A DNA stretch of 47,146 nucleotides from Candidatus Heimdallarchaeota archaeon (GTDB taxonomy: Archaea > Asgardarchaeota > Heimdallarchaeia > Heimdallarchaeales > Kariarchaeaceae). Position numbers and translations under genes: made by a program. The DNA lies in contig WAKA01000009.1 in assembly GCA_015523565.1 (NCBI GenBank), positions 1-47,146 on the forward strand, read 5' to 3'. Each line of letters begins with the position of its first letter. Position 1 is the stretch's first letter. This document shows positions 6,536 to 40,493 of the stretch, piece after piece. A model generated the notes under the pieces. That model was given only the letters and a program-made list of their open reading frames with translations, was not told the origin of the DNA and did not search any database.

Positions 6536-7195
6536 ATGGGTCATGGACTGGAAACTGCCCTTTCTGAACTTAAAAAGTACAGGGTTATTGATTCTAACGG
6601 AAATGAAGTTGGCAATCCAATTGATGTCGTCTTTGATATCAAAAAGGATCTGGCTACCAAATTGGTTTTAGGTGGCTCTTTTATCGAAGAACTCAAGGAA
6701 AAATTGGGTCTGAAACCTGATGATGATCCTGTTGTGTCTTTGACGCATATCGACAAAGTTCAGAATAAGATTATCAAGCTAAATGTAACAGCAGAAGATT
6801 TACCTAACAAGCTGGAAACAGATGCAATCTCCAAAAACGAACAAATGTTCTCTCAAATCAAGAATTTTGTCATTGTTGATACTGAGGGCAATGAAATTGG
6901 AAGACCCATTGATATAATCATACATTCCGATAATGGAATATCATTTATCATTGGAGATTCCATATTTCAAGAGTTCCTTGAAAAAATCGGTTTTACTCCT
7001 GATTTTGATTTGCTTCTTCCCTTCCATGATGTCCAGTTTATTGACACTCCCAGCAAGAAAATTAAGATAAAAAGCAAAAAGGAACATCTCCAAACAATTC
7101 TTGATGGACTTCCTCTCAAAGATGCAATTGATAGGCTAAATACTGCCACCATGGCAAGCAAAGAAGCAGAAATCATGAGGTTTAAAATCCAATAG
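6536..7195 (+). CDS. Tandem PRC-barrel domain protein
   Basis: Two repeats LSELKKYRVIDSNGNEVGNPIDVVFD / FSQIKNFVIVDTEGNEIGRPIDIIIH match the PRC-barrel pattern. Confidence 0.75.
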   Translation: MGHGLETALSELKKYRVIDSNGNEVGNPIDVVFDIKKDLATKLVLGGSFIEELKEKLGLKPDDDPVVSLTHIDKVQNKIIKLNVTAEDLPNKLETDAISKNEQMFSQIKNFVIVDTEGNEIGRPIDIIIHSDNGISFIIGDSIFQEFLEKIGFTPDFDLLLPFHDVQFIDTPSKKIKIKSKKEHLQTILDGLPLKDAIDRLNTATMASKEAEIMRFKIQ

Positions 7196-7205
7196 AGGGT
7201 ACACC

Positions 7206-7805
7206 ATGAGTCTTCCACCTATCCAATTCTCAAAAATTAGACGGATGGTCATTATTGACTGTAATGATGTTGAGGTTGGAGAACCTGTTGACATTGGTTT
7301 TTCTCTTGATCTTACTCCAAAATTCTTGGTTATCGGTGGCGGGTTCATAGAAGAGTTGCTCGAAATAATGGAACGCCGCGAGGATATTGATCAGATAATT
7401 GACCTTGATATAATCCAAGAAATCTCTGATGCAATTTACCTGAAAGTTCCCGAAACCGATCTTCCTGAAGAAAGCAACATTGGAACCATGATGACTGATA
7501 TCATCCTTTTTTCCCAAATCTGCCAAACACCAATGTTTGACATAGATGGTTTACCATTAGGTAAAATTAAAGATGTCATCTTCTCATCCGAAAAGACTGA
7601 ATTCATCTTTGAAAATCCAGAATTCAATAAGGCAATGTCAATGCGAGGCTATGGACAAAAGCTTGAATTCAAGGTGCCCAAGGAAAAACTGAGTTATCAA
7701 AATGGACTTCTTATGCTTGCATTGCCTAAGGAAGAAATCGAAAGTAAAATTCAAGCCCAAATCATCGCCAAATCAAGGGGAAAACAGCTAATTGCATTAT
7801 CATGA
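7206..7805 (+). CDS. Tandem PRC-barrel domain protein (paralogue of 6536..7195)
   Basis: FSKIRRMVIIDCNDVEVGEPVDIGF..GGGFIEELL / FSQICQTPMFDIDGLPLGKIKDVIF. Confidence 0.72.
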   Translation: MSLPPIQFSKIRRMVIIDCNDVEVGEPVDIGFSLDLTPKFLVIGGGFIEELLEIMERREDIDQIIDLDIIQEISDAIYLKVPETDLPEESNIGTMMTDIILFSQICQTPMFDIDGLPLGKIKDVIFSSEKTEFIFENPEFNKAMSMRGYGQKLEFKVPKEKLSYQNGLLMLALPKEEIESKIQAQIIAKSRGKQLIALS

Positions 7806-13992: not shown

Positions 13993-15384
13993 TTAATTTC
14001 TTCTTCTCTTAAAGTGGACTATTGTTGCGAAACTGAACAAGGTGACCAATGCAAGGTAAAGTCCAAATCCAGGTCCTTCTTTTGCTTTTACAGGTGAAAA
14101 TGAGGGTGTTTCTGTGACACCACCAGGCCATGTGATGGTTCCTGTAATTGACATTCCTGAGGTTTCGTCCCATGAGCCAACTACTGCAAACTTGTCTCCC
14201 TGCAGGTTCACAATGTCATAAAGTGCGTTCCTGTCTCCCTGTGAGTTGAAGGTGACATGTCCTGTTGCTCCCATGAAGTCAGTCTTCTTCAATTCAGCAA
14301 GCAAAAGATCACCGTCATTGTAATCCTTGCTGTCCTTTACCAACCTTTCAATTGCATAGGCAAAAGCAAAGACTGCGTCATATGCAAAGCTTGCATAGGT
14401 GTTGGGTGTTCTGTCACCACACCCTGTGTATGTGTTATTGTCCTTGCCATTGCATGTTTCCCACAAATCAAGGAATGCATCGTGAGTTGGACCACTGCCT
14501 CTGTTTGGTGCAGTTCCAATCATTCCTTGCATGTTATCCTTGACTGTTTGGTCGACCGTGCCGTCATCATTCTCGAAGACACCTTCTTGTGTGGGTCCAT
14601 CTGTACCAATCCATACATAGTCTTTTCCAACAAGTCCGACATCGCCTGCTTGGGAGAACACAGTCTTTGCATCACCAACGATGGTGTTCAAGACAATGAC
14701 ATGTGCTCCAGAATCCTTAATTGCCTGCAATTGGGTTTTTACGTCTGGTGCACCTTTGTCAAACCTTTGTGAACTGAGAATTTCAATTCCAAGATCTTTT
14801 GCAGTGTCTTCAACAACTGATATACCGCCTTCACCATAATCGTCAGATGTTGCCAAAGTTGCAATTTGTGTAAAACCAAGATCCTTGATGATGTTTGCAA
14901 TTGCAACTCCCTGTACTGCATCAGAGGGGACAACTCTCAAGAAGTATGGATATACTGTCTTGTTTGAAAGGTCTGGATTGGTTGATGAGTAGGAAATCTG
15001 TGGTATTTTGTTCTGTTCTGCAACAGCGGCAATGGCCTTTGAGACTGAGGATGATGCCGCTCCAACAAAACCAACAACTCCTGCTGCTGCCAATTCCTCT
15101 GCTGCTGACTTTCCAGTTGTTGGATCTGTGGCTGTGTCCTTGACAACCAATTCCAATGTGTATCCGCTGAGCAATGAGTCATTCGCATTGATGACATCAA
15201 CTGCCATTTGGGCGGCTGCTCTTCTTTCAACACCACCTGCTTGGAGCTTGCCCGTAAGTGGGAAAAGTCCACCAAGCTTAATTGTTGTGGTCTGATGAAG
15301 TTCAAGTGCTGTACCATTGCTCATTGGTGCCAACATCATCAAACCCAAAACAATTGTCAAATAAACAATGTTTCTTTTATTCAT
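13993..15384 (-). CDS. Liv-type substrate-binding protein (ANF_receptor/Venus-flytrap fold) with signal peptide and PGF-CTERM-like anchor
   Basis: Start moved to ATG 15384 (GGAGG upstream, signal peptide MNKRNIVYLTIVLG); IPQISYSST, FLRVVPSD, DDYG; C-terminus PGFG-TM-KRRRN; divergent from livFHMG. Confidence 0.88.
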   Translation of the reverse strand: MNKRNIVYLTIVLGLMMLAPMSNGTALELHQTTTIKLGGLFPLTGKLQAGGVERRAAAQMAVDVINANDSLLSGYTLELVVKDTATDPTTGKSAAEELAAAGVVGFVGAASSSVSKAIAAVAEQNKIPQISYSSTNPDLSNKTVYPYFLRVVPSDAVQGVAIANIIKDLGFTQIATLATSDDYGEGGISVVEDTAKDLGIEILSSQRFDKGAPDVKTQLQAIKDSGAHVIVLNTIVGDAKTVFSQAGDVGLVGKDYVWIGTDGPTQEGVFENDDGTVDQTVKDNMQGMIGTAPNRGSGPTHDAFLDLWETCNGKDNNTYTGCGDRTPNTYASFAYDAVFAFAYAIERLVKDSKDYNDGDLLLAELKKTDFMGATGHVTFNSQGDRNALYDIVNLQGDKFAVVGSWDETSGMSITGTITWPGGVTETPSFSPVKAKEGPGFGLYLALVTLFSFATIVHFKRRRN

Positions 15385-15653
15385 GTTCTTTCCTCCAAAT
15401 TGCAACGCTTTTTTCGCACCAACCATTCGGTTCTCGAAATGTGCTGTCGCGTTGCAATTTTGCTAATATGTCAAATTTGGCTTATAAGACTTTCTATTTT
15501 TTTGTGAATGAATCATAATTCTCAATTCCGTAAAAGTCATCACCTATTTTCTATTGATTAAGAATAACAATTATAAAGCAATCCGAAAATCAGAATAAAA
15601 TTACATATCCCGTAAGGAGGATGATATGACTGAAAGTAATAGAAACACAAAAT

Positions 15654-16358
15654 TTGGTTAGCGGTTATGGAAAACTCCAAATCATTAATGGAGTTGACAT
15701 TGAATTGAATAAAGGGGAATTGGTTACAATAATAGGTCCAAATGGATCTGGCAAATCAACATTAGTAAAAACAATAATTGGACTTGTCCCAAGCTGGTCT
15801 GGTAAAATCATAATCAACGAAAAATTGGACATAACTGGCATGAAGCCTTATGATATTGTCACCAAACAAGTCCCAATCAACTACGTGCCACAGGTCAACA
15901 ATGTTTTCCCAACATTGACGATTGAGGAAAATCTTCTTTTGGGCGCTCTCCCCAGGAAAAAAGATCCTAAAGAGAAAATCCAAGAGGACATGGAAAAAAT
16001 CTTTGAAATTTTTCCACGGCTAAAGGAGCGGCTCTCTCAAAAAGCTGCGCTTCTTTCTGGCGGTGAAAGGCAAATGCTTGCCCTTGGCAGAGCATTGATG
16101 TCAAATCCAGACATTTTGATTTTGGATGAGCCTACAGCTGCATTAGCGCCTGTTCTTGCGGATGAAATATTCAACAAAATTATTGAACTGAAAAAACTGG
16201 GGCTAAGCATATTGCTTGTGGAACAGAGGGCAACACGTGCCTTGAAAATCAGTGACAGGGGTTATGTCTTGGTCTCTGGAAAGGTTGCTTTTGAAGACAA
16301 GGCCGAGAATCTCATAAACAATGAAAAAGTTGGAGAACTTTATTTAGGAAAGAGGTGA
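15654..16358 (+). CDS. livF: Branched-chain amino acid ABC transporter ATPase LivF (true start probably about 15626-15630)
   Basis: SGYG, GPNGSGKS, YVPQ..NVFP.LT.EENL, LSGGERQMLA, DEPT, LLVEQ, YLG. Confidence 0.9.
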   Translation: MVSGYGKLQIINGVDIELNKGELVTIIGPNGSGKSTLVKTIIGLVPSWSGKIIINEKLDITGMKPYDIVTKQVPINYVPQVNNVFPTLTIEENLLLGALPRKKDPKEKIQEDMEKIFEIFPRLKERLSQKAALLSGGERQMLALGRALMSNPDILILDEPTAALAPVLADEIFNKIIELKKLGLSILLVEQRATRALKISDRGYVLVSGKVAFEDKAENLINNEKVGELYLGKR

Positions 16359-17590
16359 ATGATATGAGTGAAGAAGACAAAGAAATTCAAAAAATTATTG
16401 ATGAACTCAATGAGGAGGAAATCAAGGAAATTCAAGAGGTGAAAACAGAGAAACAATCATTTGTCACGGATCATCCCATTGTTTCTCTTGTTATTGCGAT
16501 TCTAATATTTATTCCAATTGCATGGGTTTTTTCCGTATTCACTTTCACCAACTTGTTGCAACAGTTCCTTTTCTCTGTTGAAAGGGCTGCATTGTATGTA
16601 ATGGTGTGTGTAGGCTTAACCCTGACAACTAGAGTTCTTAAATTCGCAAACTTTGCACATGCGGAGTTCCTTACCATTGGTGTTTATACTGGTTTGGTTA
16701 TTACATCTTTCACAAATGCGTCTGAGATTTGTTTAGGGGATTTCTGCCTTGACAATATCTTTTTGCTATCCATTTTCATCTTCATCATCACGGGTGCATT
16801 TGCAGTTCTTGGTGAAAAACTAATTTTTGGTCCCCTAAGAAAAAGAAATGCCACTCCATTGTCGCTTATGGTTGCTTCAATTGGATTTGGTCTGGTCATC
16901 AGGCAACTCGTGTCTGACTTTTTCGGGGGTCGTGATCAAAAGATTGATCTTCAATATCCTCCTTTCTTTGATAAGGTTGGATCGAATCTTGAATCAATCC
17001 CTGTTTTGAAAATCTTCTCAATTTGGTTCAGTGAAAGAGTCGAATTCAGTATTATTGGAACAACAAAAGTTATTGCCTTCAATCGAAACATGGTTTGGAA
17101 AGTGACTATGATGATAATATTAGTGGTCTTACTCCAACTTTTGTTCAAGAAAACAACACTTGGGATTTCGATGCGAGCAACTGCCGATGATATTGATTTA
17201 GCACAAATAAGCGGAATCAATACCCAGCGCATCATTGATTGGACTTGGTTCATCGCGGGTGGTGTTACTGGTGTCGGTGCATTGTTTTTCTTGGGTCCCC
17301 AAGCATTTGTTCCATTCTCTGGCTTTGCACAACTTCTCATCATATTTGCAGTCGTAACCTTAGGGGGTTTTGATTCTTTTGAGGGGACAATTGTCAGTGC
17401 CTTCATCATCTCTGCAATTCAAACAATGACCATTCTCATCAATTCTAATTTGGATCCTGATAATCCGCTTGTTTTTTGGTCACCCAACAAGGATTGGAGC
17501 TTGGTTGGTCCCTTTGCCACAATTATTGTTGTTCTAATATTCCGACCAAGAGGGCTGTTCGGGTTGGTTGACCCCAAGTCAAAATTATGA
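16355..17590 (+). CDS. livH: Branched-chain amino acid ABC permease LivH (alternative start ATG 16364)
   Basis: GLTL....KFANFAHAEF, KTTLGISMRATADD..LAQISGIN, LGG, FRPRGLFG. Confidence 0.88.
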   Translation: MNDMSEEDKEIQKIIDELNEEEIKEIQEVKTEKQSFVTDHPIVSLVIAILIFIPIAWVFSVFTFTNLLQQFLFSVERAALYVMVCVGLTLTTRVLKFANFAHAEFLTIGVYTGLVITSFTNASEICLGDFCLDNIFLLSIFIFIITGAFAVLGEKLIFGPLRKRNATPLSLMVASIGFGLVIRQLVSDFFGGRDQKIDLQYPPFFDKVGSNLESIPVLKIFSIWFSERVEFSIIGTTKVIAFNRNMVWKVTMMIILVVLLQLLFKKTTLGISMRATADDIDLAQISGINTQRIIDWTWFIAGGVTGVGALFFLGPQAFVPFSGFAQLLIIFAVVTLGGFDSFEGTIVSAFIISAIQTMTILINSNLDPDNPLVFWSPNKDWSLVGPFATIIVVLIFRPRGLFGLVDPKSKL

Positions 17591-17600
17591 GGTGCCTATC

Positions 17601-19295
17601 ATGTACGAAGATACAGATATCCAAAAAATTCTTGAAAAACGAATTGTGAAAAAAGATCAAGGTTATTTGCGCATGCTTTTGGGATTGATAATACTTATAG
17701 CATTGCTCATTATTTTCCTTTGGGCCACATTCTCATCTGGTACTGACCGTAATAAACAATTCAACTTTGTTTTAAGCTCATTTACCCTTATTTTCATTTA
17801 TGCGGCCTTTGCCTTGAGCCTTAACCTTGAAGTCGGTTATGTTGGTCTGCCAAACTTCGGAAAAATTGGTTTCGTTGCTATCGGCGCGTATACTTTTGTG
17901 ATATTGGAAACTACTCAGGGTTCCAATCTTTTTGTCCATGTTTTTTGGTCCGTAATTGCAACGCTTATCTTTGGAGTGCTCATGACTTTACCATCTCTTA
18001 GGTTGAAAGAGGATTATTTTGCAATTGTCACTATTGTTGCAGGTGAAATTGTCCGAACAATTGTTCAGAATGAAGATAAATTTGGTGGTACTTCTGGTAT
18101 TAATTATGTAAATCCAATTTTCAAAAAGTATTCCGCGGATTCATTGGTGAAACACATTTTCATTAATTTTACTTCTTTCTTGTTTCTTCTTGTTATTGTT
18201 GCTATAACTGTTGTAATTGCAATATTTCAATATCGTGGATACCTTAAGGTTAACTCCTCAAAAAGAAGCATGGTTCGTACTTTGGAAAATGCTGACAAGG
18301 TATTTCTCTTTTTCATGCTCATAGGATTTATCATGAATTTTGCTGGAATTATGGATGATGGGCCATCCCTTGGACTTGATCTAATGCTTCTGCTAACATA
18401 TTTCTCAATAAAAATTGCTAAAGCTACTTTGAACATGATCGTTTCCGACAATAAACCAACGACAAATAATGTATTGGTTGGGATTTCTCCCCTCATTATC
18501 CCCATAATATCTATTGTTGTGTTCTTTTTGCTAAGATTCTCAAAAGGTGATACTGTAAGCATTATTTCAACTCCCAAGTGGTATACTGCAATTCTTTCCA
18601 TGTCAATCATGCTAATTGCATATGAGGTCATGAACATAATGGACATATCCCCCTTGGGACGAACATTAAAGGCAATAAGGGATGACGATACTAGTGCCGT
18701 TTCTGTTGGAAAGGGTCTCTTGATTAACAGGCTTAAAGGATTTGTCGTTGCAAGCTTTGTAATTGGATTTGTGGCACCATTTTTCGTGTTCTTTAATGCA
18801 GGTGTAACGCCTGAAACCTATCTGCCCCTTCTCACCTTTATCCTCTATATAATGATCATTATTGGTGGAACGGCTAACAACCGTGGAGTTGTCTTTGGTG
18901 CAGTGACCATCGAGTTGCTTATCTTGACAGCCCAAAGGCTCCAAAGCGTCAATAATGCATTCATACAAAACCTGTCCTACCCATGGGGACAAAAAGTGGA
19001 TCCCGTCAATTGGGCTTATATTATTACAGGAGTACTCCTGATTGTGTTTCTCATTTTTGCTCCTGAAGGATTTTTCCCTGAAAGAAAATACAACAATGAC
19101 AGGTATCTTGACGATCTTTACCTTGCAGACAGGGATGATGACATAGACAAAAGCAAATTCTTGTCAATGCTGGCAAAAGCCTCAAAATCTTCCCTTATCT
19201 ATGGTGAACCCAAGGAGGAAATTCCATCAAATTTCTTCAGCAACTTGTTGGATCAAGTAAAAAATAAATTCAAAGGAGGTTCTGAAAATGAGTGA
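17601..19295 (+). CDS. livM: Branched-chain amino acid ABC permease LivM, enlarged
   Basis: LNLEVGYVGLPNFG, RLKEDYFAIVTI, SPLGRTLKAIRDD, IIGG, PEG; ATG 17601 preceded by GAGGTG. Confidence 0.88.
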   Translation: MYEDTDIQKILEKRIVKKDQGYLRMLLGLIILIALLIIFLWATFSSGTDRNKQFNFVLSSFTLIFIYAAFALSLNLEVGYVGLPNFGKIGFVAIGAYTFVILETTQGSNLFVHVFWSVIATLIFGVLMTLPSLRLKEDYFAIVTIVAGEIVRTIVQNEDKFGGTSGINYVNPIFKKYSADSLVKHIFINFTSFLFLLVIVAITVVIAIFQYRGYLKVNSSKRSMVRTLENADKVFLFFMLIGFIMNFAGIMDDGPSLGLDLMLLLTYFSIKIAKATLNMIVSDNKPTTNNVLVGISPLIIPIISIVVFFLLRFSKGDTVSIISTPKWYTAILSMSIMLIAYEVMNIMDISPLGRTLKAIRDDDTSAVSVGKGLLINRLKGFVVASFVIGFVAPFFVFFNAGVTPETYLPLLTFILYIMIIIGGTANNRGVVFGAVTIELLILTAQRLQSVNNAFIQNLSYPWGQKVDPVNWAYIITGVLLIVFLIFAPEGFFPERKYNNDRYLDDLYLADRDDDIDKSKFLSMLAKASKSSLIYGEPKEEIPSNFFSNLLDQVKNKFKGGSENE

Positions 19296-20073
19296 TATCA
19301 TCTTTGAAGCTGAAAACATCCACAAGTATTTTGGAGGTGTAAAAGCGTTGCAAGGCGCAACTGTCCTTGTGGAAAAAGGAAAACTAACTTCCCTGATCGG
19401 TCCGAATGGAAGCGGAAAAAGCACTTTCTTTAATGTGATTACAGGTTTCCTTAAAGCGGAAGAAAATAGCGGCAAAATCATCTTCAAAAAACATAACATC
19501 AAAAACTTGCCACCAGAATACATCCCATGGCTTGGTATGGTAAGAACGTTTCAGCACACCCGCAATTTCCCCCAAATGACCGTTCTTGAAAACATGCTAG
19601 TCTCCCCCAAAAAACAAGTCGGTGAAAGCCTAATCTGGAGTTTTCTAGCCAAACCAATCTGGCAAAGGGAAGATGCAGTCAATGTGAAAAAGGCATTGCA
19701 AATCCTTGATTTTCTTGAAATTGCCCATGTCATGGATCACTTGGCCAGCGAACTGTCTGGTGGTCAACAAAAGCTGTTGGCGATAGGCAGACTCCTTATG
19801 ACTGCTCCATCATTGCTTTTGCTCGATGAACCTGTGGCAGGTGTTAACCCTACCCTTGCCAATAAAATCTTTGACCAAATTATCAATTTGAAAGAAAAAC
19901 AGGGAATAGATGTTCTTTTGATTGAACATAATATGGATGTTGTCATGTCCTTCTCAGACCATATCTTTGTCATGGCAGAAGGAAGGGTCATTGCGGAAGG
20001 AGACCCATCAAGCATCCAAAAAGACAAGAAGGTTCTTGATGCATACCTCGGAGAAAGTCCAGACGAAGCATAA
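19288..20073 (+). CDS. livG: Branched-chain amino acid ABC transporter ATPase LivG
   Basis: KYFGG, GPNGSGKST, RTFQ, LSGGQQKLL, DEPVAGVNP, IEHNM, AYLG. Confidence 0.92.
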   Translation: MSDIIFEAENIHKYFGGVKALQGATVLVEKGKLTSLIGPNGSGKSTFFNVITGFLKAEENSGKIIFKKHNIKNLPPEYIPWLGMVRTFQHTRNFPQMTVLENMLVSPKKQVGESLIWSFLAKPIWQREDAVNVKKALQILDFLEIAHVMDHLASELSGGQQKLLAIGRLLMTAPSLLLLDEPVAGVNPTLANKIFDQIINLKEKQGIDVLLIEHNMDVVMSFSDHIFVMAEGRVIAEGDPSSIQKDKKVLDAYLGESPDEA

Positions 20074-20284: not shown

Positions 20285-21607
20285 ATGGTAACCGCAGATG
20301 TTGTCGGTGGCAAAAAATATGATTTTGACCATCTTTCAAATTATCTGAACCCCCATATGAAGGGTTTTGAAAAATCACCCACTCTTGCAATCAATGAACT
20401 GTCCAGAGAAATGGAAATGCAGGGGATGAAGGTCTACAGATTCGGATTTGGTCAATCTCCTTTTCCTGTTCCCAACTTCATGGTCAAGGAATTGCAGAAC
20501 TATGCAAAAGAAAAGGATTATTTGCCCGTCGAAGGGCTCCCTGAACTCAGGGAAGCCGTCGCAAATTTCTACAGGGAAGTAAAAGGCATTGAAGTCGAAT
20601 GGAATCAGGTGCTTATCGCCCCTGGCTCAAAACAACTTCTTTTCCTCATCCAATTCGTCCTAAATGCTGAACTCCTTATTCCTGTACCATGTTGGGTGAC
20701 TTACATCCCCCAAGCAAAACTTTTAGGTAGGCAAGTCCACACCTTCATGACTTCTGCCGACAACAACTGGGAACTGGATCCTTTTGAACTCGAAGAATAT
20801 CTGCAATCCACTTCCAATACCCCAAAACTTCTTCTTCTCAATTATTACAACAATCCCACAGGAACCGAAGCTCATGCCAAAAACCTAATGAAAATTGCCG
20901 AAATTGCAAGAAAATACGGTGTTGTTGTTGTCTCTGACGAAATTTATGATCGACTCACATTTACAGACAACTACTCATCGATCGTAAAATATTATCCTGA
21001 AGGAACAATCATTAGCAGTGGACTGTCAAAATGGGCTGGTGCTGGTGGATGGAGACTTGGAACCTTTATTTTCCCAAAACGCCTTGGGGAAATCCAACGG
21101 GCATGTGCTGTCCTTGCTTCTGAAACTTACTCCTGTGTTGCCGCGCCCATTCAATATGCAGGCGTTGCGGCCTATAATGATAGGGATCGGATACACAAAT
21201 ATATCTCTAAATCCGTCAAGATTCTCAAGCTTATTTCATCTTATTGCTCCATGAAGCTTGTACAAGCAGGAATCAGAGTCAATCCTTCTGCTGGAGCATT
21301 TTATCTTTTCATTGATTTCGAAAAACTCAGGGACAAACTTCTTGCCAAAGGTGTCCATACAAGTATTGAACTAACGCACACCTTGCTTCAGGAAACAGGA
21401 GTTGCTCTACTGCCAGGCACCGCTTTTGGAATGCCTCCTGAATCATTGACTGCACGTTTGGCTTATGTGGACTTCAATGGAGCACACGCTTTAGAAATGC
21501 TTGGAAATTACCTTGAGTATGATTCTGACAAAGATTTCCTTATGGAAATCGCCCCCAATGTTGTTGAAGGAATTGATGCACTTACTGAGTGGGTCGAAAC
21601 TCTCTGA
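20285..21607 (+). CDS. Class I/II PLP-dependent aminotransferase (aspartate aminotransferase-like)
   Basis: GLPELREAVA, GSKQ, NNPTG, SDEIY, GLSKWAGAGGWRLG (PLP lysine), GAFY, LPG. Confidence 0.92.
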   Translation: MVTADVVGGKKYDFDHLSNYLNPHMKGFEKSPTLAINELSREMEMQGMKVYRFGFGQSPFPVPNFMVKELQNYAKEKDYLPVEGLPELREAVANFYREVKGIEVEWNQVLIAPGSKQLLFLIQFVLNAELLIPVPCWVTYIPQAKLLGRQVHTFMTSADNNWELDPFELEEYLQSTSNTPKLLLLNYYNNPTGTEAHAKNLMKIAEIARKYGVVVVSDEIYDRLTFTDNYSSIVKYYPEGTIISSGLSKWAGAGGWRLGTFIFPKRLGEIQRACAVLASETYSCVAAPIQYAGVAAYNDRDRIHKYISKSVKILKLISSYCSMKLVQAGIRVNPSAGAFYLFIDFEKLRDKLLAKGVHTSIELTHTLLQETGVALLPGTAFGMPPESLTARLAYVDFNGAHALEMLGNYLEYDSDKDFLMEIAPNVVEGIDALTEWVETL

Positions 21608-24364: not shown

Positions 24365-26251
24365 ATGAGACGTTTTTTGTCTATTTTGATGCTATTTTTG
24401 ATTTGGACATCGGTTTCTGTTAATGTAAACAGTGCTGATAATTCAAATGAATTGACATGGGGTTTGATTGCGATTGGTGCACCTGGTGCTTGGAATTATA
24501 CACTAGGTTTGAAAGAGATCGTTGTTGCCGTCATTGATTCTGGTCTTGATTATAGACACCCTGAATTTGCAGGAAGAGTATGGAATAACACTGATGAGAT
24601 TTTGAATGGTATTGATGACGATGGCAATGGCTATATTGATGACATTCGTGGATGGAATTTTTATGATGGTACAAATGATCCTTTTGATGCTCTCCCCTCA
24701 TCACATGGTACTCATGTTTCTGGTACGATTGCCGCGGCACTTGATGGTGTTGGTGTTGCAGGTGTTGCACCCAATGTCACGATCATGCCTTTGAAGGTCT
24801 TTGGAACAGACGACAATGGTGGTGCTGTCGGTCTTTCTGATGCTATTCGTTATGCCATTGACAATGGCGCGAACATTATCTCTATGAGTTTAGGAGGTCT
24901 TGGTTTTACGACTGAAGAGCGTAAAGCCATAGAGGATGCATGGGATGCTGGACTTGTACTTGTAGCTGCCAATGGAAATGAAGCGGGACCTGTTGGTTTT
25001 CCTGCGGCTTTTGATGAAGTTATTGCAGTCTCTGCCGTGGATGAGAACTTGAAGCTCGCCGACTTTTCCAACACTGGGGATCCGACTGAAATAGCCGCAC
25101 CTGGTGTCGGTGTCAATTCAACAGTTCGTCAAGGTTCTGGTCAGTGGACCAAGTTCAGTGTGAATGGGACATCGTATGAGGCAAATTGGATGGAATTCGC
25201 CCCCAATGCAGATCCTGCCGTTATTGGGGAAATGGAATACATTGGTCTTGGTCGATCCGAGGATGTTGCCGGTCGAAATTTGACAGGAAAAATTGCCTTG
25301 ATTCAAAGAGGAGAAATCTATTTCCGTGATAAGGTTGGAAATGCTTCTGCTGTAGGTGCAATCGGTGCAGTTATTTTCAACAATCAGCCAGGGAATTTCC
25401 TTGGCACTCTTGGAGAACCTGGTGAAATTCCTGCTGTATCCATCTCAAAGTCAGATGGTCAATTCCTGTTGGATCAATTGAATCAAAACATGACTTTGAA
25501 TGCAACGCTTGTTTCAAAACCTGCAAATTATAGCATGCTATCTGGTACGTCCATGGCCACCCCACATGTCTCTGGAGCCGCAGCATTAGTCTGGAGCCTT
25601 AACACAAGCTTAAGCAATATTGAGGTAAGGCGTATCCTTGCTCGAAGCACCACGGATCTTGGAACAAAGGGTCGCGATAAATCATACGGTTTCGGACTGT
25701 TGAATGTTGAAAAGGCAATGGAAGTAACGTTGGATTCTTCACTTCCCATACTTGATTACAACCTTTCCACCTCTTGGAACAATGATACAAACAAAATTAC
25801 CGCTTGGGTCAATTTCACGAGTACTGATGACGTTGGAATCTGGTCAGTTACAATTGATGTGCTTGATGTAAATGGTTCGCTTGTGGCAAACAAGGTTTAT
25901 ATGAACAATGACAGGGACAATAATTATAAAACTCGTGTCTTTTTCAAAGGTCTGGATTCAACTCGTGGTAATCTTACCTTTGTCTTGAATGTTGAGGATC
26001 TACGCGGACATCGCGTTTCAGCTATTGTGGATACAATTACGTACAATACAACTCAAACTCTTGTTTCATCAGGAAGTACAAAAACAAGTGAACCCGTGAC
26101 TTCATCTTCTTCTACTACAACAACAAATATTAGTGGCTCGGTTGAAACAAGTCCTACAACGTCAAACGTAACTCCAATCGACTTTGAAATGATTGTAAGT
26201 GGTCTAATCATTATGGTAGTGACTGTACGTCGTTCACGGAAACGTCGATAG
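24365..26251 (+). CDS. Membrane-anchored S8 subtilisin-like serine protease with PA domain
   Basis: Signal peptide; VIDSG, HGTHVSG, AANGN, GTSMATP; PA insert GKIALIQRG..F..K; S/T-rich linker, TM helix, RRSRKRR. Confidence 0.93.
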   Translation: MRRFLSILMLFLIWTSVSVNVNSADNSNELTWGLIAIGAPGAWNYTLGLKEIVVAVIDSGLDYRHPEFAGRVWNNTDEILNGIDDDGNGYIDDIRGWNFYDGTNDPFDALPSSHGTHVSGTIAAALDGVGVAGVAPNVTIMPLKVFGTDDNGGAVGLSDAIRYAIDNGANIISMSLGGLGFTTEERKAIEDAWDAGLVLVAANGNEAGPVGFPAAFDEVIAVSAVDENLKLADFSNTGDPTEIAAPGVGVNSTVRQGSGQWTKFSVNGTSYEANWMEFAPNADPAVIGEMEYIGLGRSEDVAGRNLTGKIALIQRGEIYFRDKVGNASAVGAIGAVIFNNQPGNFLGTLGEPGEIPAVSISKSDGQFLLDQLNQNMTLNATLVSKPANYSMLSGTSMATPHVSGAAALVWSLNTSLSNIEVRRILARSTTDLGTKGRDKSYGFGLLNVEKAMEVTLDSSLPILDYNLSTSWNNDTNKITAWVNFTSTDDVGIWSVTIDVLDVNGSLVANKVYMNNDRDNNYKTRVFFKGLDSTRGNLTFVLNVEDLRGHRVSAIVDTITYNTTQTLVSSGSTKTSEPVTSSSSTTTTNISGSVETSPTTSNVTPIDFEMIVSGLIIMVVTVRRSRKRR

Positions 26252-32974: not shown

Positions 32975-34486
32975 GTGGGTAACTCGACCAATCCACTAAT
33001 TCGTTTAATCATGTTCACAAGCGAAGATTGCATTTATTGCCCCCCTGTTGAATCAATAGTGAAAGAAGTGGTGGGAGGTGCCATGAGTGACTTTATTTAT
33101 GTGAACACTGTGGATGTCGATGAAAATCCAGAAGCTGCACAACGATACAATATTTCTAGTCTTCCAACTTTAATGATAAACGAGCAAATCGTTCTTCAAG
33201 GGGGCATGGATGACGACAGTATCAGAGAGATACTCTGGAATACACTTTTGAGTTTGGCAGTTGCCAACAAAGAAAGGTTGGAACGGTCAAAACAATCCTT
33301 GCTCCATGTTGCAGTCAACACTTGGGAATCGTTGACTGGAGAGCGGATGCTAAGGAAAACGTTAGGTGATTTTATTCATTTGGGACCATATCAACTGACT
33401 TTGCTCTCACTTTATAGTCTTGACCCATTGGTTCCCTCAATCCTCTATCAAGCAGGTTATCAACTTGGTCTGTTCGGTCTCATGCACCATCTGCTTAATT
33501 TGCTTGAACCCCGGCTTGGTATGACAATTAAACGAAAGAATAGGCTCAAGTTCATTTGTGATGCCCTTGAACTTTATTACAGCGATCGTGAATTCCTTCC
33601 GACATACGTGGCAGAAAGTGCCGAGGTAACGACCATCAAAGATGACCTATTTGTTATCCAGATCGAGGGTCTGGCGTCTGCTGCCATGAAAATTGACGTT
33701 GGGGAACCAATGTGCGATTTTACAGCAGGAACATTGGCGGGTGTCACAGATTCATTGATGGGTACACAATCCATTGCAGTAGAAACGGCTTGTGCCGCCA
33801 ATGGTGCTCCCCATTGTGAATTTACTGTCTATCTTGATCCCGAAAACCCAAACGAAATCAGGAAAACCCCAAAAGTGGAAGACAAATTGGAAATCAGGGA
33901 ACGAAGACTTAATTTTTATGAAAGCATCCATGAACTTAGCATTAAACTTGAAGATAGCTATTTCATGAGAAAAAGGCTCCGACCATCCATAGGTGACATG
34001 GTTCATGTTAGTGTTTATCAGCCTATTGTCCTTTCAATAAAAATGATGGACGATTATCTTTCCTCCATCCTGTTTTCCGCAGGAAGGGAATTAGGTATCT
34101 TTGGCTCAGGAAAAACATTGCTGTATGACATTGTGCAAGGAATGGAAGGTGAAGGTGAACTGCAACTGCCCATTGAGTTCAATAAGGGGGTTGACATTCT
34201 CCAAAAATACATGACACATCCTACAACCTATTTGGCAAAAGAATGGGGGATTGTCGAGACCAGCCCTCCAGATCCAGACAATCCTGGTGTCAGGTATATC
34301 TCTGTTGGTGACTATGGTCCTGTTTCCGGTGTCCCTGATCTTAATCTGACTCTTTGTGACTTCCTGGTAGGATTCCTTACAGGAAGGCTCTCAGTCCTCA
34401 TTGGTGAAGAACCCCTGATTAGGGAGGTAGAGTGTCAAGGAACAGGTGCACCATTCTGCAAATTTGAAATCAAGCTACAAAGGTAA
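32975..34486 (+). CDS. Thioredoxin domain + two V4R domains
   Basis: CIYC and SLPT thioredoxin motifs; V4R1 PMCDFTAG..ETACAANGAPHCEF; V4R2 LCDFLVG..EVECQGTGAPFCKF; internal repeat RKTLGDFIH / RPSIGDMVH. Confidence 0.85.
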   Translation: MGNSTNPLIRLIMFTSEDCIYCPPVESIVKEVVGGAMSDFIYVNTVDVDENPEAAQRYNISSLPTLMINEQIVLQGGMDDDSIREILWNTLLSLAVANKERLERSKQSLLHVAVNTWESLTGERMLRKTLGDFIHLGPYQLTLLSLYSLDPLVPSILYQAGYQLGLFGLMHHLLNLLEPRLGMTIKRKNRLKFICDALELYYSDREFLPTYVAESAEVTTIKDDLFVIQIEGLASAAMKIDVGEPMCDFTAGTLAGVTDSLMGTQSIAVETACAANGAPHCEFTVYLDPENPNEIRKTPKVEDKLEIRERRLNFYESIHELSIKLEDSYFMRKRLRPSIGDMVHVSVYQPIVLSIKMMDDYLSSILFSAGRELGIFGSGKTLLYDIVQGMEGEGELQLPIEFNKGVDILQKYMTHPTTYLAKEWGIVETSPPDPDNPGVRYISVGDYGPVSGVPDLNLTLCDFLVGFLTGRLSVLIGEEPLIREVECQGTGAPFCKFEIKLQR

Positions 34487-34655: not shown

Positions 34656-35213
34656 ATGAGCAACAGAAGAAAAATTTTCAAAATAGTCCTCCTCGGCGAT
34701 GGAGCAGTAGGAAAGACCGCACTTAGAACCAGATACCTCGGAGAAGGGTTCAAAAAAAGCTATTCTATGACTATCGGTGCAGATTTTGCGGTCAAAAGGG
34801 TCAATCTCGATGGACACGAAATTGTCGCACAAATTTGGGATCTGGCTGGACAAATCCGTTTTCAGTCAGTGAGGGAAGTGTATTACCAAGGAGCGACTGG
34901 AGCTCTCCTCGTCTTCGACATCACCAGAGGGGATACATTCGAAAACATACCTAATTGGATTACTGAACTTCTTGAAAATAACAATAACAGAGTTGTTCCC
35001 ATGGTACTTATTGGCAATAAGTCTGACTTAAGGGATGAAAACTCAATCACCACTGAAGCTGGTATTGAGTACGCCAAAAACCTCTCACAATGGAGCAACT
35101 TTGAAATCCCCTATGTTGAAACCTCCGCCAAAGAAGGTAGCAATGTCGAGGAAGCTTTCCAAATCCTCCTAAGAAATATCGAAAGCTACTTGGCTAGCGA
35201 AAAAGCGGGGTAA
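34656..35213 (+). CDS. Rab-like small GTPase
   Basis: G1 GDGAVGKT, G2 TIGADF, G3 WDLAGQ, G4 NKSD, G5 ETSAK; RabF-like RFQSV, YYQGA, LVFDIT; no C-terminal cysteine. Confidence 0.95.
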   Translation: MSNRRKIFKIVLLGDGAVGKTALRTRYLGEGFKKSYSMTIGADFAVKRVNLDGHEIVAQIWDLAGQIRFQSVREVYYQGATGALLVFDITRGDTFENIPNWITELLENNNNRVVPMVLIGNKSDLRDENSITTEAGIEYAKNLSQWSNFEIPYVETSAKEGSNVEEAFQILLRNIESYLASEKAG

Positions 35214-37796: not shown

Positions 37797-39224
37797 ATGC
37801 TTGTGGTTCAACGTGAATATTTCATCGAGGAGCAGGAACTACGCGACCCCGAAGAAATAGACAAGGTTTATCTGGAAACCAATGTGTATGAAGAAACCAT
37901 AAAACGTATTGACTTTATCCTGACTGAATTTGAAGAAATCTGCGTCTCTTTCAGCGGAGGCAAGGATTCGTCGGTTCTGTTGCAGTTGACAATTGAAAGG
38001 GCACGGAAGCTTGGCAAACTCCCCGTGAAGGCCATGTTCATTGATTTCGAAGCACAGTACGAGGCAACAATCAAGCATGTCGAGGAAATGCTTATTGACA
38101 ACCCTGATGTAGAGCCATACTGGATATGCCTTCCATTCAAACTCAGAAATGCAGTCAGTGTCTATGATCCGCATTGGATCTGTTGGGATGAGAGTAAAAG
38201 GCACCTATGGGTCAGGGAATATCCTGAATATGATTGTGTTATCACCAGACATAACCTCCCAAAAGAATGGCATTGGTTTTTCGAAGGCATGGAATTCGAG
38301 GAATTCGTTGTTCCCTTCGGCATGTGGATCAGGGATACGGGAGGCATTATCAGGGAACGCATGGAACTTACCAACACCCTTGACAAAAAAGTCCAGACGG
38401 TTTCCATTGAAGGGCTATTGGCAGATACTTACTCCATGAAAGAGATTGTCCGCCACAAAAGCGAACGAAAAAGGCTAACTGCAAACCTCGTGGCAATAAG
38501 GGCTGACGAATCCCTCAACAGATTCAGAGCCGTTAGACGCCTTAACAATGATGCCAAATACAAGGGGATCAACTGGACAACTAGAATGCGTAAAAACCTC
38601 TACAATGCATATCCAATCTATGATTGGAAAACTGAGGATATTTGGACTGCCGTCGGAAAATTCAGACTGAAATACAACAAGATTTACGATTTCATGTATA
38701 TGGCTGGGACCAGCATCCATGAATCAAGACTCTGCCAACCATTCGGTGACGACCAACGCCAAGGTCTTGACCTGTTCAGGAAAATCGAACCAGAAACATG
38801 GTTCAGACTTGTCCAACGAGTTGCAGGTGCTAATTTCGGAAACATCTATGTCAAAAGCCCCCTATTGGGACATGGCAAAGTGTTCAAACCAGATCACATG
38901 ACTTGGCACGAATATGCAAACTTCCTCCTGAACACAATTCCAAAATATCAGGCACATATCTACAAGGAACGCATTGAGCAATTCCTCAAATGGTGGGAAG
39001 AAAACGGCAACTGGCCACGTGACGAAGTTCCAGACGCCACCCCCCCAAAAACTGACCCAAGATGGTACAAACCTGACGGCACCAAATACAGGAAATTACC
39101 GTCATGGGAACGGATCGCAAAAGCCATCCTCAAGAATGACATTACCTGCAAATCACTTAGCTTTGGATGCGTCATCGGCGGTTACCCACGATACCTTAAG
39201 CTCAAGGAAATGTATGGAGAGTAA
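37797..39224 (+). CDS. IbrA/YbdN-like PAPS-reductase-family (PP-loop) protein with DUF3440
   Basis: SFSGGKDS, FIDFEAQY, WICLP, WICWD, IRADESLNR, YPIYDWKTEDIW, RLCQPFGDDQRQGL, RVAGANFG, PSWERI..ILKND. Confidence 0.9.
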   Translation: MLVVQREYFIEEQELRDPEEIDKVYLETNVYEETIKRIDFILTEFEEICVSFSGGKDSSVLLQLTIERARKLGKLPVKAMFIDFEAQYEATIKHVEEMLIDNPDVEPYWICLPFKLRNAVSVYDPHWICWDESKRHLWVREYPEYDCVITRHNLPKEWHWFFEGMEFEEFVVPFGMWIRDTGGIIRERMELTNTLDKKVQTVSIEGLLADTYSMKEIVRHKSERKRLTANLVAIRADESLNRFRAVRRLNNDAKYKGINWTTRMRKNLYNAYPIYDWKTEDIWTAVGKFRLKYNKIYDFMYMAGTSIHESRLCQPFGDDQRQGLDLFRKIEPETWFRLVQRVAGANFGNIYVKSPLLGHGKVFKPDHMTWHEYANFLLNTIPKYQAHIYKERIEQFLKWWEENGNWPRDEVPDATPPKTDPRWYKPDGTKYRKLPSWERIAKAILKNDITCKSLSFGCVIGGYPRYLKLKEMYGE

Positions 39225-39229
39225 TTCAA

Positions 39230-40012
39230 ATGCCCAAGAAAAACCAACCAAATGACAAACCGAAAGAGAAAACCATCCAAGGAAAGCCAAAGGGCAAATC
39301 AAAAGAGAATGCCCAAAAGAAGACCAGCCAACGAAACCCTAAAGAAAACCCAAAAGAGAAAACCAACCAAGTAAAAAACATCAAAGACAAGTTGCACCCC
39401 CTCAAAAATGAAATGGACGCTTTGATTACCAAACTGTCACAATTACCTGAAGAACAACGTATCGACCTGCTTAACTATCTGAAACGAAAAATTGCAGAGG
39501 CAAGCCCTTTCTCTCACCATCCCGTTGATGTCGTCCAATGGATCCCCTCCGAAAAAGTGGTCGCAAACGACTACAACCCCAATAAGGTGGCTCCTCCTGA
39601 AATGAGGCTCCTTCATCTCTCCATCAAGGAAGACGGCTATACCCAACCAATTGTCGCATATTACGACAAGGAACTTGACCAATACGTCATTGTCGACGGA
39701 TTCCACAGAAACAGGGTCGGAAAGGAATATGAAGACATCAGGGCATCAGTCAAAAACCACCTGCCCATTGTCGTCATCAACAAGGACATAAAAGCAAGAA
39801 TGGCCTCAACAATTCGTCACAACAGGGCAAGAGGAACTCATCAGATCCAGTCAATGAGCCAAGTCGTTGCAGAGCTCCACCTTAAGGGATGGTCAGACAA
39901 GAAAATCGCAGAACAGCTCGGGATGGACAAGGATGAAGTTCTCAAACTCAAGCAATTCGCAGGACTTGGAGACCTGTTCAAAAACCGAGAATTCTCAAAA
40001 GCGTGGGTGTGA
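39230..40012 (+). CDS. IbrB/YbdM-like ParB/Srx-domain protein
   Basis: ANDYNPNKVAPPEM.LL..SI.EDGYTQPIV, IVDGFHR, RMASTIRHNRARG.H, HTH GWSDKKIAEQLGM. Confidence 0.92.
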   Translation: MPKKNQPNDKPKEKTIQGKPKGKSKENAQKKTSQRNPKENPKEKTNQVKNIKDKLHPLKNEMDALITKLSQLPEEQRIDLLNYLKRKIAEASPFSHHPVDVVQWIPSEKVVANDYNPNKVAPPEMRLLHLSIKEDGYTQPIVAYYDKELDQYVIVDGFHRNRVGKEYEDIRASVKNHLPIVVINKDIKARMASTIRHNRARGTHQIQSMSQVVAELHLKGWSDKKIAEQLGMDKDEVLKLKQFAGLGDLFKNREFSKAWV

Positions 40013-40205
40013 TCATTTCTCTCCTCCAATTGCTCTTTCCACCCGTTTTTCCATTCACCATTTGTCTTCCCCGTTCTTTTTTGTCTGCACTAAATTTTAT
40101 TTTTGTACGCAAATTGCCTCCCCATCCCTCCACTTAATCTCCTATCTCCAAAATTCCTGTAAACTTTCCGAAATTTTTATTAGTGTCCAAATGATAAATA
40201 AAATT

Positions 40206-40236
40206 GCAGCCATCTGATACTTTTTTAGGTGGCTGC
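40206..40236 (+). terminator. 12-bp stem-loop in the convergent intergenic region (terminator or small-RNA element)
   Basis: GCAGCCATCTGA-tactttt-TTAGGTGGCTGC with two G-U pairs. Confidence 0.35.
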
Positions 40237-40493
40237 CTCCCTCCCCCCATATAAAAGTCATGATTATTTTTCCCTCCATACACGTAACTTTCACCCCCTT
40301 ACTCAATTTCCTTGGGGGAAATTGTTTTTCAAATCACTGGTTTTTTCAAAACCCAATCGTATCCATTGATCCTATTTTTTACTGACTGAATACATCATTT
40401 CATGTTTTCTCTTCTATTGCACTTGAAAATATCAAAAATTTCTAACAGTTTTTCTAATTCGATTTTTGATTTCCCCCCGACCATTCCAAAATT

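What the first reader, a model, noticed from the sequence alone, without database searches (positions are those of the whole stretch)
13993..15384. Liv binding protein that reads like a class C GPCR (mGluR/CaSR) Venus-flytrap domain
Seen: VGAASSSVS..IPQISYSSTNPDLSNKTVYPYFLRVVPSD..Q..AI, LATSDDYGEGG, WIGTDG, a WETC..C cysteine loop, YDAVFAFAYAI and F.GATG.V.FN..GD...YDIVN..VVGSW. As I recall them, these track the mGluR/CaSR/GLR/GABA-B motifs (SSSVS, IPQISYAST..LSD, F.R.VP.D, YG..G, W.GSDGW, DAVYA.AHA, GD..GRYDI) more closely than typical LivJ/K, including the Ser, Thr, Tyr and Asp alpha-amino-acid contacts. Yet the protein ends in one anchor helix and is divergent from livFHMG. Inference: a possible prokaryotic relative of the eukaryotic receptor ectodomain that still serves a transporter.
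Basis: partly seen in the sequence, partly recalled or inferred. Interest (0 to 1): 0.8.

Follow-up and report, generated by a model that had tools for sequence, protein, structure and literature searches.

The report
Asgard transporter protein resembling flytrap receptors
This gene makes the surface amino-acid-catching protein of an ABC importer in a Heimdall-group Asgard archaeon, and its family is the closest prokaryotic kin found of the 'Venus flytrap' sensor domain of eukaryotic glutamate, GABA-B and related receptors, so the origin of that domain can now be tested directly.

Summary
Observation confirmed. The ORF (13993-15384, minus strand, 463 aa) encodes a signal peptide, one Venus-flytrap (VFT) domain and a PGF-helix-basic anchor. 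It scores 275 bits on Pfam ANF_receptor against 163 on Peripla_BP_6, and the top PDB hits by sequence and by fold are all eukaryotic receptors. It travels with livF-H-M-G in Kariarchaeaceae-type and Hodarchaeales genomes, and the ATPases form a matching clade (100/99), so it most likely serves an amino-acid importer. Mixture-model ML trees put this Heimdallarchaeia family and eukaryotic VFTs in one clade (100/99); AU tests reject the two other sisters tried. Unresolved: which Heimdall lineage is the sister, eukaryote monophyly, hence direction of descent, and the ligand. Two corrections: the Ser/Thr/Tyr/Asp contacts are shared with LivJ and are not diagnostic, and the cysteine loop is probably lineage-specific. 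It is not a GPCR: no 7TM domain here or in 400 Asgard genomes. Two sporadic copies sit on probable Nitrosopumilaceae contigs. No paper found describes this; one 2026 preprint lists an undetailed 'class C GPCR' Asgard-eukaryote cluster. This scan noted the same family before in other genomes.

The parts
13993..15384 (-). Substrate-binding protein gene, 463 aa (477 aa from the upstream ATG at 15426)
15304..15384 (-). N-terminal signal peptide (basic start plus hydrophobic helix, about residues 1-27); cleavage site not determined
   Evidence: sequence; helix 3-17 in the model; inference
14119..15288 (-). Venus-flytrap / type I periplasmic-binding-protein domain, residues 33-422
   Evidence: PF01094 275 bits; AlphaFold2 mean pLDDT 92.9; Foldseek
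14599..15051 (-). Span holding the alpha-amino-acid contacts S112, T135, Y183, D262 (aligned to LivJ S79, T102, Y150, E226)
   Evidence: alignment; LivJ contacts in PMC6983066
15223..15225 (-). R54, aligned to the arginine of the mGluR QRVEA motif (mGluR1 R78); shared by the Heimdall family and many eukaryotes, 3% of other prokaryotes
   Evidence: R78 role in PMC5372683
14419..14454 (-). C311-C322 loop inside an insertion after W308; putative disulfide, not measured
13996..14073 (-). C-terminal anchor: PGF, one membrane helix, basic tail; Heimdall-CTERM-like (19.5 bits, below the cut-off of 24; relatives pass)
15385..15653 (.). 269-bp AT-rich (32% GC) stretch between the divergent genes; presumed promoter region, no site shown
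   Evidence: inference
15654..16358 (+). LivF-like ABC ATPase with Walker A, LSGG signature, Walker B
16355..17590 (+). LivH-like permease (BPD_transp_2)
17568..19295 (+). LivM-like permease (BPD_transp_2)
19288..20073 (+). LivG-like ABC ATPase with intact motifs and BCA_ABC_TP_C
20285..21607 (+). Class I/II aminotransferase; an aminotransferase gene lies beside the system in several related genomes

Best explanation
The protein is the membrane-tethered substrate-binding subunit of a HAAT-family ABC importer (LivF-H-M-G, 'system A') that Kariarchaeaceae-type and Hodarchaeales archaea inherited from a common Heimdallarchaeia ancestor. It is exported by its signal peptide and held at the surface by the C-terminal helix; it closes its two lobes on an L-alpha-amino acid through S112, T135, Y183 and D262 and hands it to LivH/LivM, with LivF/LivG hydrolysing ATP; the neighbouring aminotransferase probably feeds the amino acid into catabolism. 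The same lineage of binding protein is the closest known prokaryotic relative, and the likeliest source, of the eukaryotic VFT domain, which eukaryotes later fused to 7TM, channel, cyclase, kinase and phosphodiesterase modules. Shown: anatomy, gene linkage, co-inheritance, tree placement. Inferred: transport, ligand class, direction of descent. My split: transporter role about 0.9; one clade with eukaryotic VFTs about 0.9; archaea-to-eukaryote direction about 0.7. Ligand guess: a small polar or acidic amino acid (about 0.55) rather than a branched-chain one.
For: Gene order: the binding protein lies next to livF-H-M-G in related genomes, divergent in the window's relatives (L034, L037, L038, L042) and co-directional in Hodarchaeales (L070, L072-L077) (Hodarchaeales names). 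LivF+LivG of system A form one clade, 100/99, split into the same two branches. IQ-TREE LG+C20+F+G4: eukaryotes + both Heimdall branches 100/99 with 93 rows and 100/99 with 47 rows. AU tests reject eukaryotes + the nearest bacterial clade (p 7.5e-7) and eukaryotes + system B/Marine-Group-II-type proteins (p about 0). All 39 eukaryotic VFT domains tested, mGluR1/5, natriuretic peptide receptor, iGluR and GLR included, have their best prokaryotic hit in this family. A profile from animal and plant receptors alone scores the query 325, the Hodarchaeales branch 134-210 and every other prokaryote 126 or less. 16 alignment columns are shared with eukaryotes and rare in other prokaryotes, 2 the other way. 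Best eukaryotic hits reach 38-41% identity; P0101 lies beside Rpb1 and Ric8 on a eukaryotic contig.
Against: Eukaryote monophyly is weak (46/90; absent from the 47-row tree, though not rejected, p 0.42), so the tree does not give a direction. Eukaryotes + Kariarchaeaceae-type branch is 99/99 in one tree and 63/16 in the other, and a Heimdall-only clade is not rejected (p 0.36). The family is patchy: no match in two Heimdallarchaeia families (0/31, 0/12) and only 7/22 in the Hodarchaeales family (genomes incomplete). Two copies lie on probable Nitrosopumilaceae contigs, so the gene has moved sideways at least once. Most eukaryotic rows were retrieved with the query itself. One domain of about 360 columns, with long branches and uneven composition. 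No binding or transport data.
Confidence: 0.7

Rival explanations
1. Reverse or partly reverse flow: the eukaryote-like binding protein came from an early eukaryote (or the stem lineage) into Heimdallarchaeia, or replaced the native binding protein in the Kariarchaeaceae-type branch, and was put to work for the transporter.
For: In 54% of bootstrap trees the Kariarchaeaceae-type clade groups with a subset of eukaryotes, most often P0101 plus the Thecamonas phosphodiesterase type (336/1000). Eukaryotes + Kariarchaeaceae-type to the exclusion of Hodarchaeales conflicts with the view that Hodarchaeales are the nearest relatives of eukaryotes (own knowledge; the premise of bioRxiv 10.1101/2025.02.26.640444). 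Patchy distribution.
Against: The Hodarchaeales proteins still branch with eukaryotes at 100/99 and sit in the orthologous operon whose ATPases track the same split, so a transfer must predate that split or happen twice. The archaeal proteins lack the hydrophobic helix-C pair that most eukaryotic VFTs carry (both positions: 1/16, 0/16 against 22/39) and end in a Heimdall-type anchor. Eukaryotes are not known to use binding-protein-dependent ABC import at the cell surface (own knowledge).
Confidence: 0.17
2. Tree artefact or missing donor: the grouping reflects slow evolution of this family close to an ancestral VFT sequence, or an unsampled prokaryotic lineage gave the gene to both groups.
For: The query has a very short end branch while eukaryotic branches are long; composition differs among rows. 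Only the best 150 of 21,954 library hits were seen. Many bacterial phyla were not searched by profile. Sporadic thaumarchaeal copies exist.
Against: Long, supported stem under a site-heterogeneous model in three data sets; shared derived columns and the longer loop after W308 (median 28, 30, 25 residues against 17); the fast-evolving Hodarchaeales branch shows the same affinity; the whole-library search and the scan of 185,579 species genomes showed no closer bacterial clade.
Confidence: 0.08
3. The protein is mainly a surface sensor that signals through a partner, and the link to livFHMG is incidental or secondary.
For: It is transcribed away from the transporter genes; orphan, tandem and fused paralogues exist (C50 paralogue, P0084, P0092, P0140).
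Against: No cytoplasmic domain (tail of about 5 residues); no 7tm_3 match over the cut-off in 400 Asgard genomes; no signalling fusion in an archaeal member among longer homologues (a weak search); the transporter has no other binding protein at this locus, and the linkage is conserved and co-directional in Hodarchaeales.
Confidence: 0.05

Closest known systems
E. coli LivJ/LivK and HAAT-family ABC substrate-binding proteins (Pfam Peripla_BP_6; NCBIfam NF011933)
   Same: Two-lobed type I fold, alpha-amino-acid contacts (S79, T102, Y150, E226 equivalents), cognate LivF/G/H/M genes, likely role in uptake.
   Different: Only 77 bits on NF011933 (cut-off 477); scores higher on ANF_receptor than on Peripla_BP_6; LivJ Y202, L77, C78, A100 are I235, A110, S111, S133; has R54, W308 and a longer loop; C-terminal membrane anchor; gene order F-H-M-G.
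Class C GPCR VFT domains (mGluR1-8, CaSR, GABA-B1, protist GABA-B-like receptors)
   Same: Best sequence and fold matches; shared motifs; Ser/Thr/Tyr/Asp and the R78-equivalent; one clade in trees; 38-41% identity to protist members.
   Different: No 7TM domain, no cysteine-rich domain, no cytoplasmic tail; the mGluR1 K409 position is Tyr (K409 role from own knowledge); the helix-C hydrophobic pair is Gln-Asn.
Other eukaryotic VFT receptors: plant GLR and animal iGluR N-terminal domains, natriuretic peptide receptor cyclases, Thecamonas VFT-phosphodiesterases, protist VFT-kinases
   Same: Same clade of VFT domain; Arabidopsis GLR3.4 is the top PDB sequence hit; each has its best prokaryotic hit in this family.
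   Different: All are fused to an effector module; this protein is not.
'A class C GPCR' Asgard-eukaryote structural cluster in bioRxiv 10.64898/2026.10.28.762692
   Same: Reports an Asgard-plus-eukaryote-only cluster with this annotation as not previously listed among eukaryotic signature proteins; it may be this family.
   Different: One phrase only; no members, architecture, gene context or tree in the text; supplements not held, so identity could not be checked.

Membership tests
HAAT (Liv-type) ABC substrate-binding protein | Type I periplasmic-binding-protein fold with alpha-amino-acid contacts | tested here: met
   PF13458 163 bits over cut-off; model; contacts aligned to LivJ
HAAT (Liv-type) ABC substrate-binding protein | Cognate two permeases and two ATPases, conserved linkage | tested here: met
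HAAT (Liv-type) ABC substrate-binding protein | Exported and surface-retained (signal peptide, anchor) | tested here: met
   Hydrophobic N-terminus and C-terminal helix with basic tail; sequence-level only
HAAT (Liv-type) ABC substrate-binding protein | Binds substrate and delivers it to the permeases | not testable with these tools
   needs binding and transport assays
LivJ/LivK branched-chain amino-acid binding subfamily (NF011933) | Curated score cut-off and hydrophobic side-chain pocket | tested here: not met
   77 bits against 477; Y202 to Ile, L77 to Ala, C78 to Ser
Class C GPCR | VFT domain of the eukaryotic receptor clade (PF01094) | tested here: met
   275 bits, equal to a fish mGluR5 ectodomain at 276; trees
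Class C GPCR | Seven-helix 7tm_3 domain and G-protein coupling | tested here: not met
   one C-terminal helix; 0 of 400 Asgard genomes over the 7tm_3 cut-off
Class C GPCR | Cysteine-rich NCD3G linker (mGluR/CaSR type) | tested here: not met
   only two Cys, both inside the VFT; no PF07562 hit
Class C GPCR | Obligate dimer through lobe-I helices | tested here: inconclusive
   helix-C hydrophobic pair absent in sequence; no experiment
Heimdall-CTERM / PGF-CTERM sorting signal | Motif score over cut-off and a cognate sortase | tested here: inconclusive
   19.5 bits against 24, though P0005, P0018 and P0304 pass; PF09721 not found in the 90%-complete genome

The most novel reading that the evidence does not exclude
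All or most eukaryotic Venus-flytrap sensor domains (class C GPCRs, iGluR/GLR N-terminal domains, natriuretic peptide receptors, protist VFT-enzymes) descend vertically from one amino-acid ABC importer of the Heimdallarchaeia host lineage, not from a bacterial periplasmic protein; this protein is a slowly evolving living proxy of that ancestor, and the transporter-to-receptor switch meant losing LivFHMG, gaining a dimer patch and fusing to effectors.
Probability: 0.6. Interest if true: 0.85.

Novelty: new variant of a known kind. Interest (0 to 1): 0.72.

Why it matters
The standard account derives the class C GPCR flytrap loosely from 'bacterial periplasmic binding proteins' at 7-9% identity for GABA-B (PMC2670285; repeated in PMC13466386). 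Here a specific archaeal donor candidate lies at 38-41% identity to protist receptors, in the lineage closest to eukaryotes, and still in its transporter context. That makes testable the ancestral ligand of glutamate, GABA-B, calcium and taste receptors, and the changes needed to turn a transport subunit into a dimeric receptor. It would also add a eukaryotic signature protein family that annotation hides as 'ABC substrate-binding protein'.

Tried and rejected
Homodimer prediction: no answer, score 0.00; not evidence either way. Sequencing runs: no RNA holder listed; DNA holders come from one hydrothermal-vent study that may be the source. Promoter/terminator scan: chance level, bacterial model. 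Ser/Thr/Tyr/Asp as receptor-specific signature: rejected. Cysteine loop as the mGluR disulfide: not supported; it lies in the same insertion, but spacing differs and the nearest protist relatives lack it. Asgard VFT-7TM fusion: none found; 7TM hits checked for context were eukaryotic contigs. Contamination: rejected; the contig carries archaeal EF-1alpha, a glycerol-1-phosphate-dehydrogenase-like gene and ribosomal genes, and synteny holds in other genomes. P0248 as sister of the clade: a slicing error of mine; correctly cut domains fall with the Marine-Group-II-type proteins. Archaeosortase: not found. Literature: no mention in bioRxiv 10.1101/2024.07.03.601958, 10.1101/2024.10.14.618318, PMC7997004 or PMC11719702 main texts; supplements and paywalled ESP catalogues not searched.

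Full report
Observation. Every quoted motif is present. The protein has a signal-like N-terminus, one VFT domain (about 33-422), a short linker and a PGF-helix-basic tail. AlphaFold2 gives the two-lobed fold at mean pLDDT 92.9. livF, livH, livM and livG follow on the plus strand after 269 bp, with intact ATPase motifs.

Host. Named close homologues are Candidatus Kariarchaeaceae and Heimdallarchaeota proteins (61% and 50-52%), and the neighbours are archaeal. I infer a Kariarchaeaceae-type member of Heimdallarchaeia; the tools did not name the genome.

How eukaryote-like. Pfam ANF_receptor scores it 275 bits against 163 for Peripla_BP_6. A fish mGluR5 ectodomain scores 276, E. coli LivJ 86, and the genome's own conventional Liv binding protein 155. 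The best 60 PDB sequences are GLR3.4, mGluRs and GABA-B; the best 50 Foldseek hits are class C GPCRs. In the search of 1.84 billion cluster representatives, the best relatives outside the family are eukaryotic: a 7TM receptor beside Rpb1 and Ric8 (P0101), Thecamonas VFT-phosphodiesterases, an Endostelium 7TM receptor, Picozoa and Fabomonas proteins, at up to 38-41% identity. Bacteria trail: 30-34% in Bipolaricaulota, at most 83 bits in plasmids, at most 176, 167 and 153 bits on the family profile in samples of Pseudomonadota, Thermoproteota and Bipolaricaulota, against 349 for P0101 on the same alignment run locally. To limit circularity I built a profile from animal and plant receptors only: query 325, Hodarchaeales branch 134-210, all other prokaryotes 126 or less; and each of 39 eukaryotic domains had its best prokaryotic hit in this family.

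Gene context. Heimdallarchaeia carry two Liv systems. System A has this protein with livF-H-M-G, divergent in the window's relatives and co-directional in Hodarchaeales (names). System B has a conventional binding protein followed by livH-M-G-F; the window's genome has its binding protein and livH at the end of contig C214. LivF+LivG of system A form a clade at 100/99 that splits into the same two branches. The binding protein and transporter were therefore most likely inherited together from the common ancestor of the two groups. An aminotransferase gene lies beside system A in several genomes. The family is patchy: strong hits in the own family, one sister family and part of the Hodarchaeales, none in two other Heimdallarchaeia families, only weak hits in most other Asgard groups.

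Phylogeny. With 93 rows and 360 columns under LG+C20+F+G4, eukaryotes plus both system A branches form a clade at 100/99; eukaryotes plus the Kariarchaeaceae-type branch 99/99; eukaryotes alone 46/90. With 47 rows the large clade holds at 100/99 but the inner order dissolves (63/16). AU tests reject eukaryotes with the nearest bacterial clade (p 7.5e-7) and with system B plus Marine-Group-II-type proteins; they do not reject a Heimdall-only clade (p 0.36) or eukaryote monophyly (p 0.42). So kinship is well supported, while the exact sister and the direction are not shown by the tree. Direction rests on the transporter's age, the archaeal anchor and the absence of eukaryotic receptor traits.

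Residues. S112, T135, Y183 and D262 align with LivJ S79, T102, Y150 and E226 (PMC6983066) and occur in 79-97% of other prokaryotic VFTs, so they point to an alpha-amino-acid ligand but not to receptor kinship. More telling are 16 columns shared with eukaryotes and rare elsewhere (for example L72, P146, F148, F208, W308, N393), against 2 in the other direction, and R54, aligned to mGluR1 R78, a glutamate contact (PMC5372683). The mGluR lysine that binds the distal carboxylate (K409, own knowledge) is Tyr here, and several LivJ hydrophobic pocket residues are smaller or polar, so neither glutamate nor branched-chain specificity is shown. The two helix-C positions that are hydrophobic in most eukaryotic VFTs (Leu-Phe in mGluR, part of the dimer surface by my own knowledge) are polar in the archaeal proteins, which suggests that this patch arose later. 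The Cys pair is mostly confined to the Kariarchaeaceae-type branch.

Exception. Two unanchored members of the clade (P0059/P0246, P0061) lie on short contigs; one neighbours a DEAD-box helicase 72% identical to a Nitrosopumilaceae protein. None was found in 301 Nitrosopumilaceae genomes and their place in the clade is unresolved. They look like sporadic transfers, and they show that the family is not strictly Asgard-only.

Mechanism. Most likely the protein is secreted, tethered by its Heimdall-CTERM-like tail (no sortase found), closes on an L-amino acid and delivers it to LivH/LivM. It is not a GPCR: it has no 7TM domain, and none passes the cut-off in 400 Asgard genomes.

Prior knowledge. 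The LivJ-VFT homology is textbook and is attributed to bacteria (PMC2670285; PMC13466386). I found no paper that names a Heimdallarchaeia binding protein as the nearest relative. A preprint of October 2026 lists 'a class C GPCR' among new Asgard-eukaryote structural clusters without detail; it may be this family. Earlier notes of this scan reached the same reading on other genomes; I formed my reading before opening them and do not count them as support.

Verdict. A real, ordinary-looking transport subunit with an unusual and well-supported evolutionary position. New variant of a known kind; interest 0.72.

Noticed in passing
G000:C50:5536-6921 (L002; P0040): Orphan paralogue, 50% identical, sister to the window's protein on a long branch, with no liv genes nearby; it has lost the Y183 and D262 equivalents, so it may have a changed ligand or a non-transport role.
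   Followed up: partly
G000:C214:9368-11553 (L003): Second, conventional Liv system (binding protein then livH, cut by the contig end); its binding protein groups with Marine-Group-II-type proteins, not with eukaryotes.
   Followed up: yes
L181:1276-2355 (P0246/P0059) and L183:536-1657 (P0061): Unanchored members of the eukaryote-Heimdall VFT clade on probable Nitrosopumilaceae contigs (73% and 35% GC); both keep a Cys pair in the W308 loop; likely sideways transfers.
   Followed up: partly
L090:8001-10616 (P0140), L091:7517-10261 (P0092), P0084: Orphan variants of the family: VFT fused to a beta-helix, and tandem double-VFT proteins, away from liv genes; P0092 lies next to a PAS histidine kinase gene.
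   Followed up: partly
P0224, P0125, P0108: Thecamonas trahens and environmental VFT-membrane helix-phosphodiesterase receptors are among the closest eukaryotic relatives of the Asgard protein.
   Followed up: partly
P0317: A protein labelled Candidatus Methanoperedens falls inside the Hodarchaeales branch at 60% identity; possibly a misbinned contig.
   Followed up: no
L072 (G397): A genome placed outside the window's class carries a complete system A nested among Hodarchaeales copies in both trees; transfer or taxonomy effect.
   Followed up: partly
window 34656-35213 (+): Rab-like small GTPase (read from sequence only).
   Followed up: no
window 32975-34486 (+): Thioredoxin-like CxxC-type N-terminus followed by two apparent V4R-like domains (read from sequence only).
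   Followed up: no
window 37797-45386: PAPS-reductase-like gene with a ParB-like partner (37797-40012) beside a 1630-aa superfamily 1 helicase-like gene (40494-45386); looks like a mobile or defence island (read from sequence only).
   Followed up: no
window 24365-26251 (+): Secreted subtilisin-like protease with a PA-like insert and a C-terminal anchor, close to the amino-acid importer; fits peptide scavenging (read from sequence only).
   Followed up: no
window 6536-7805 (+): Two adjacent PRC-barrel-like paralogues (read from sequence only).
   Followed up: no
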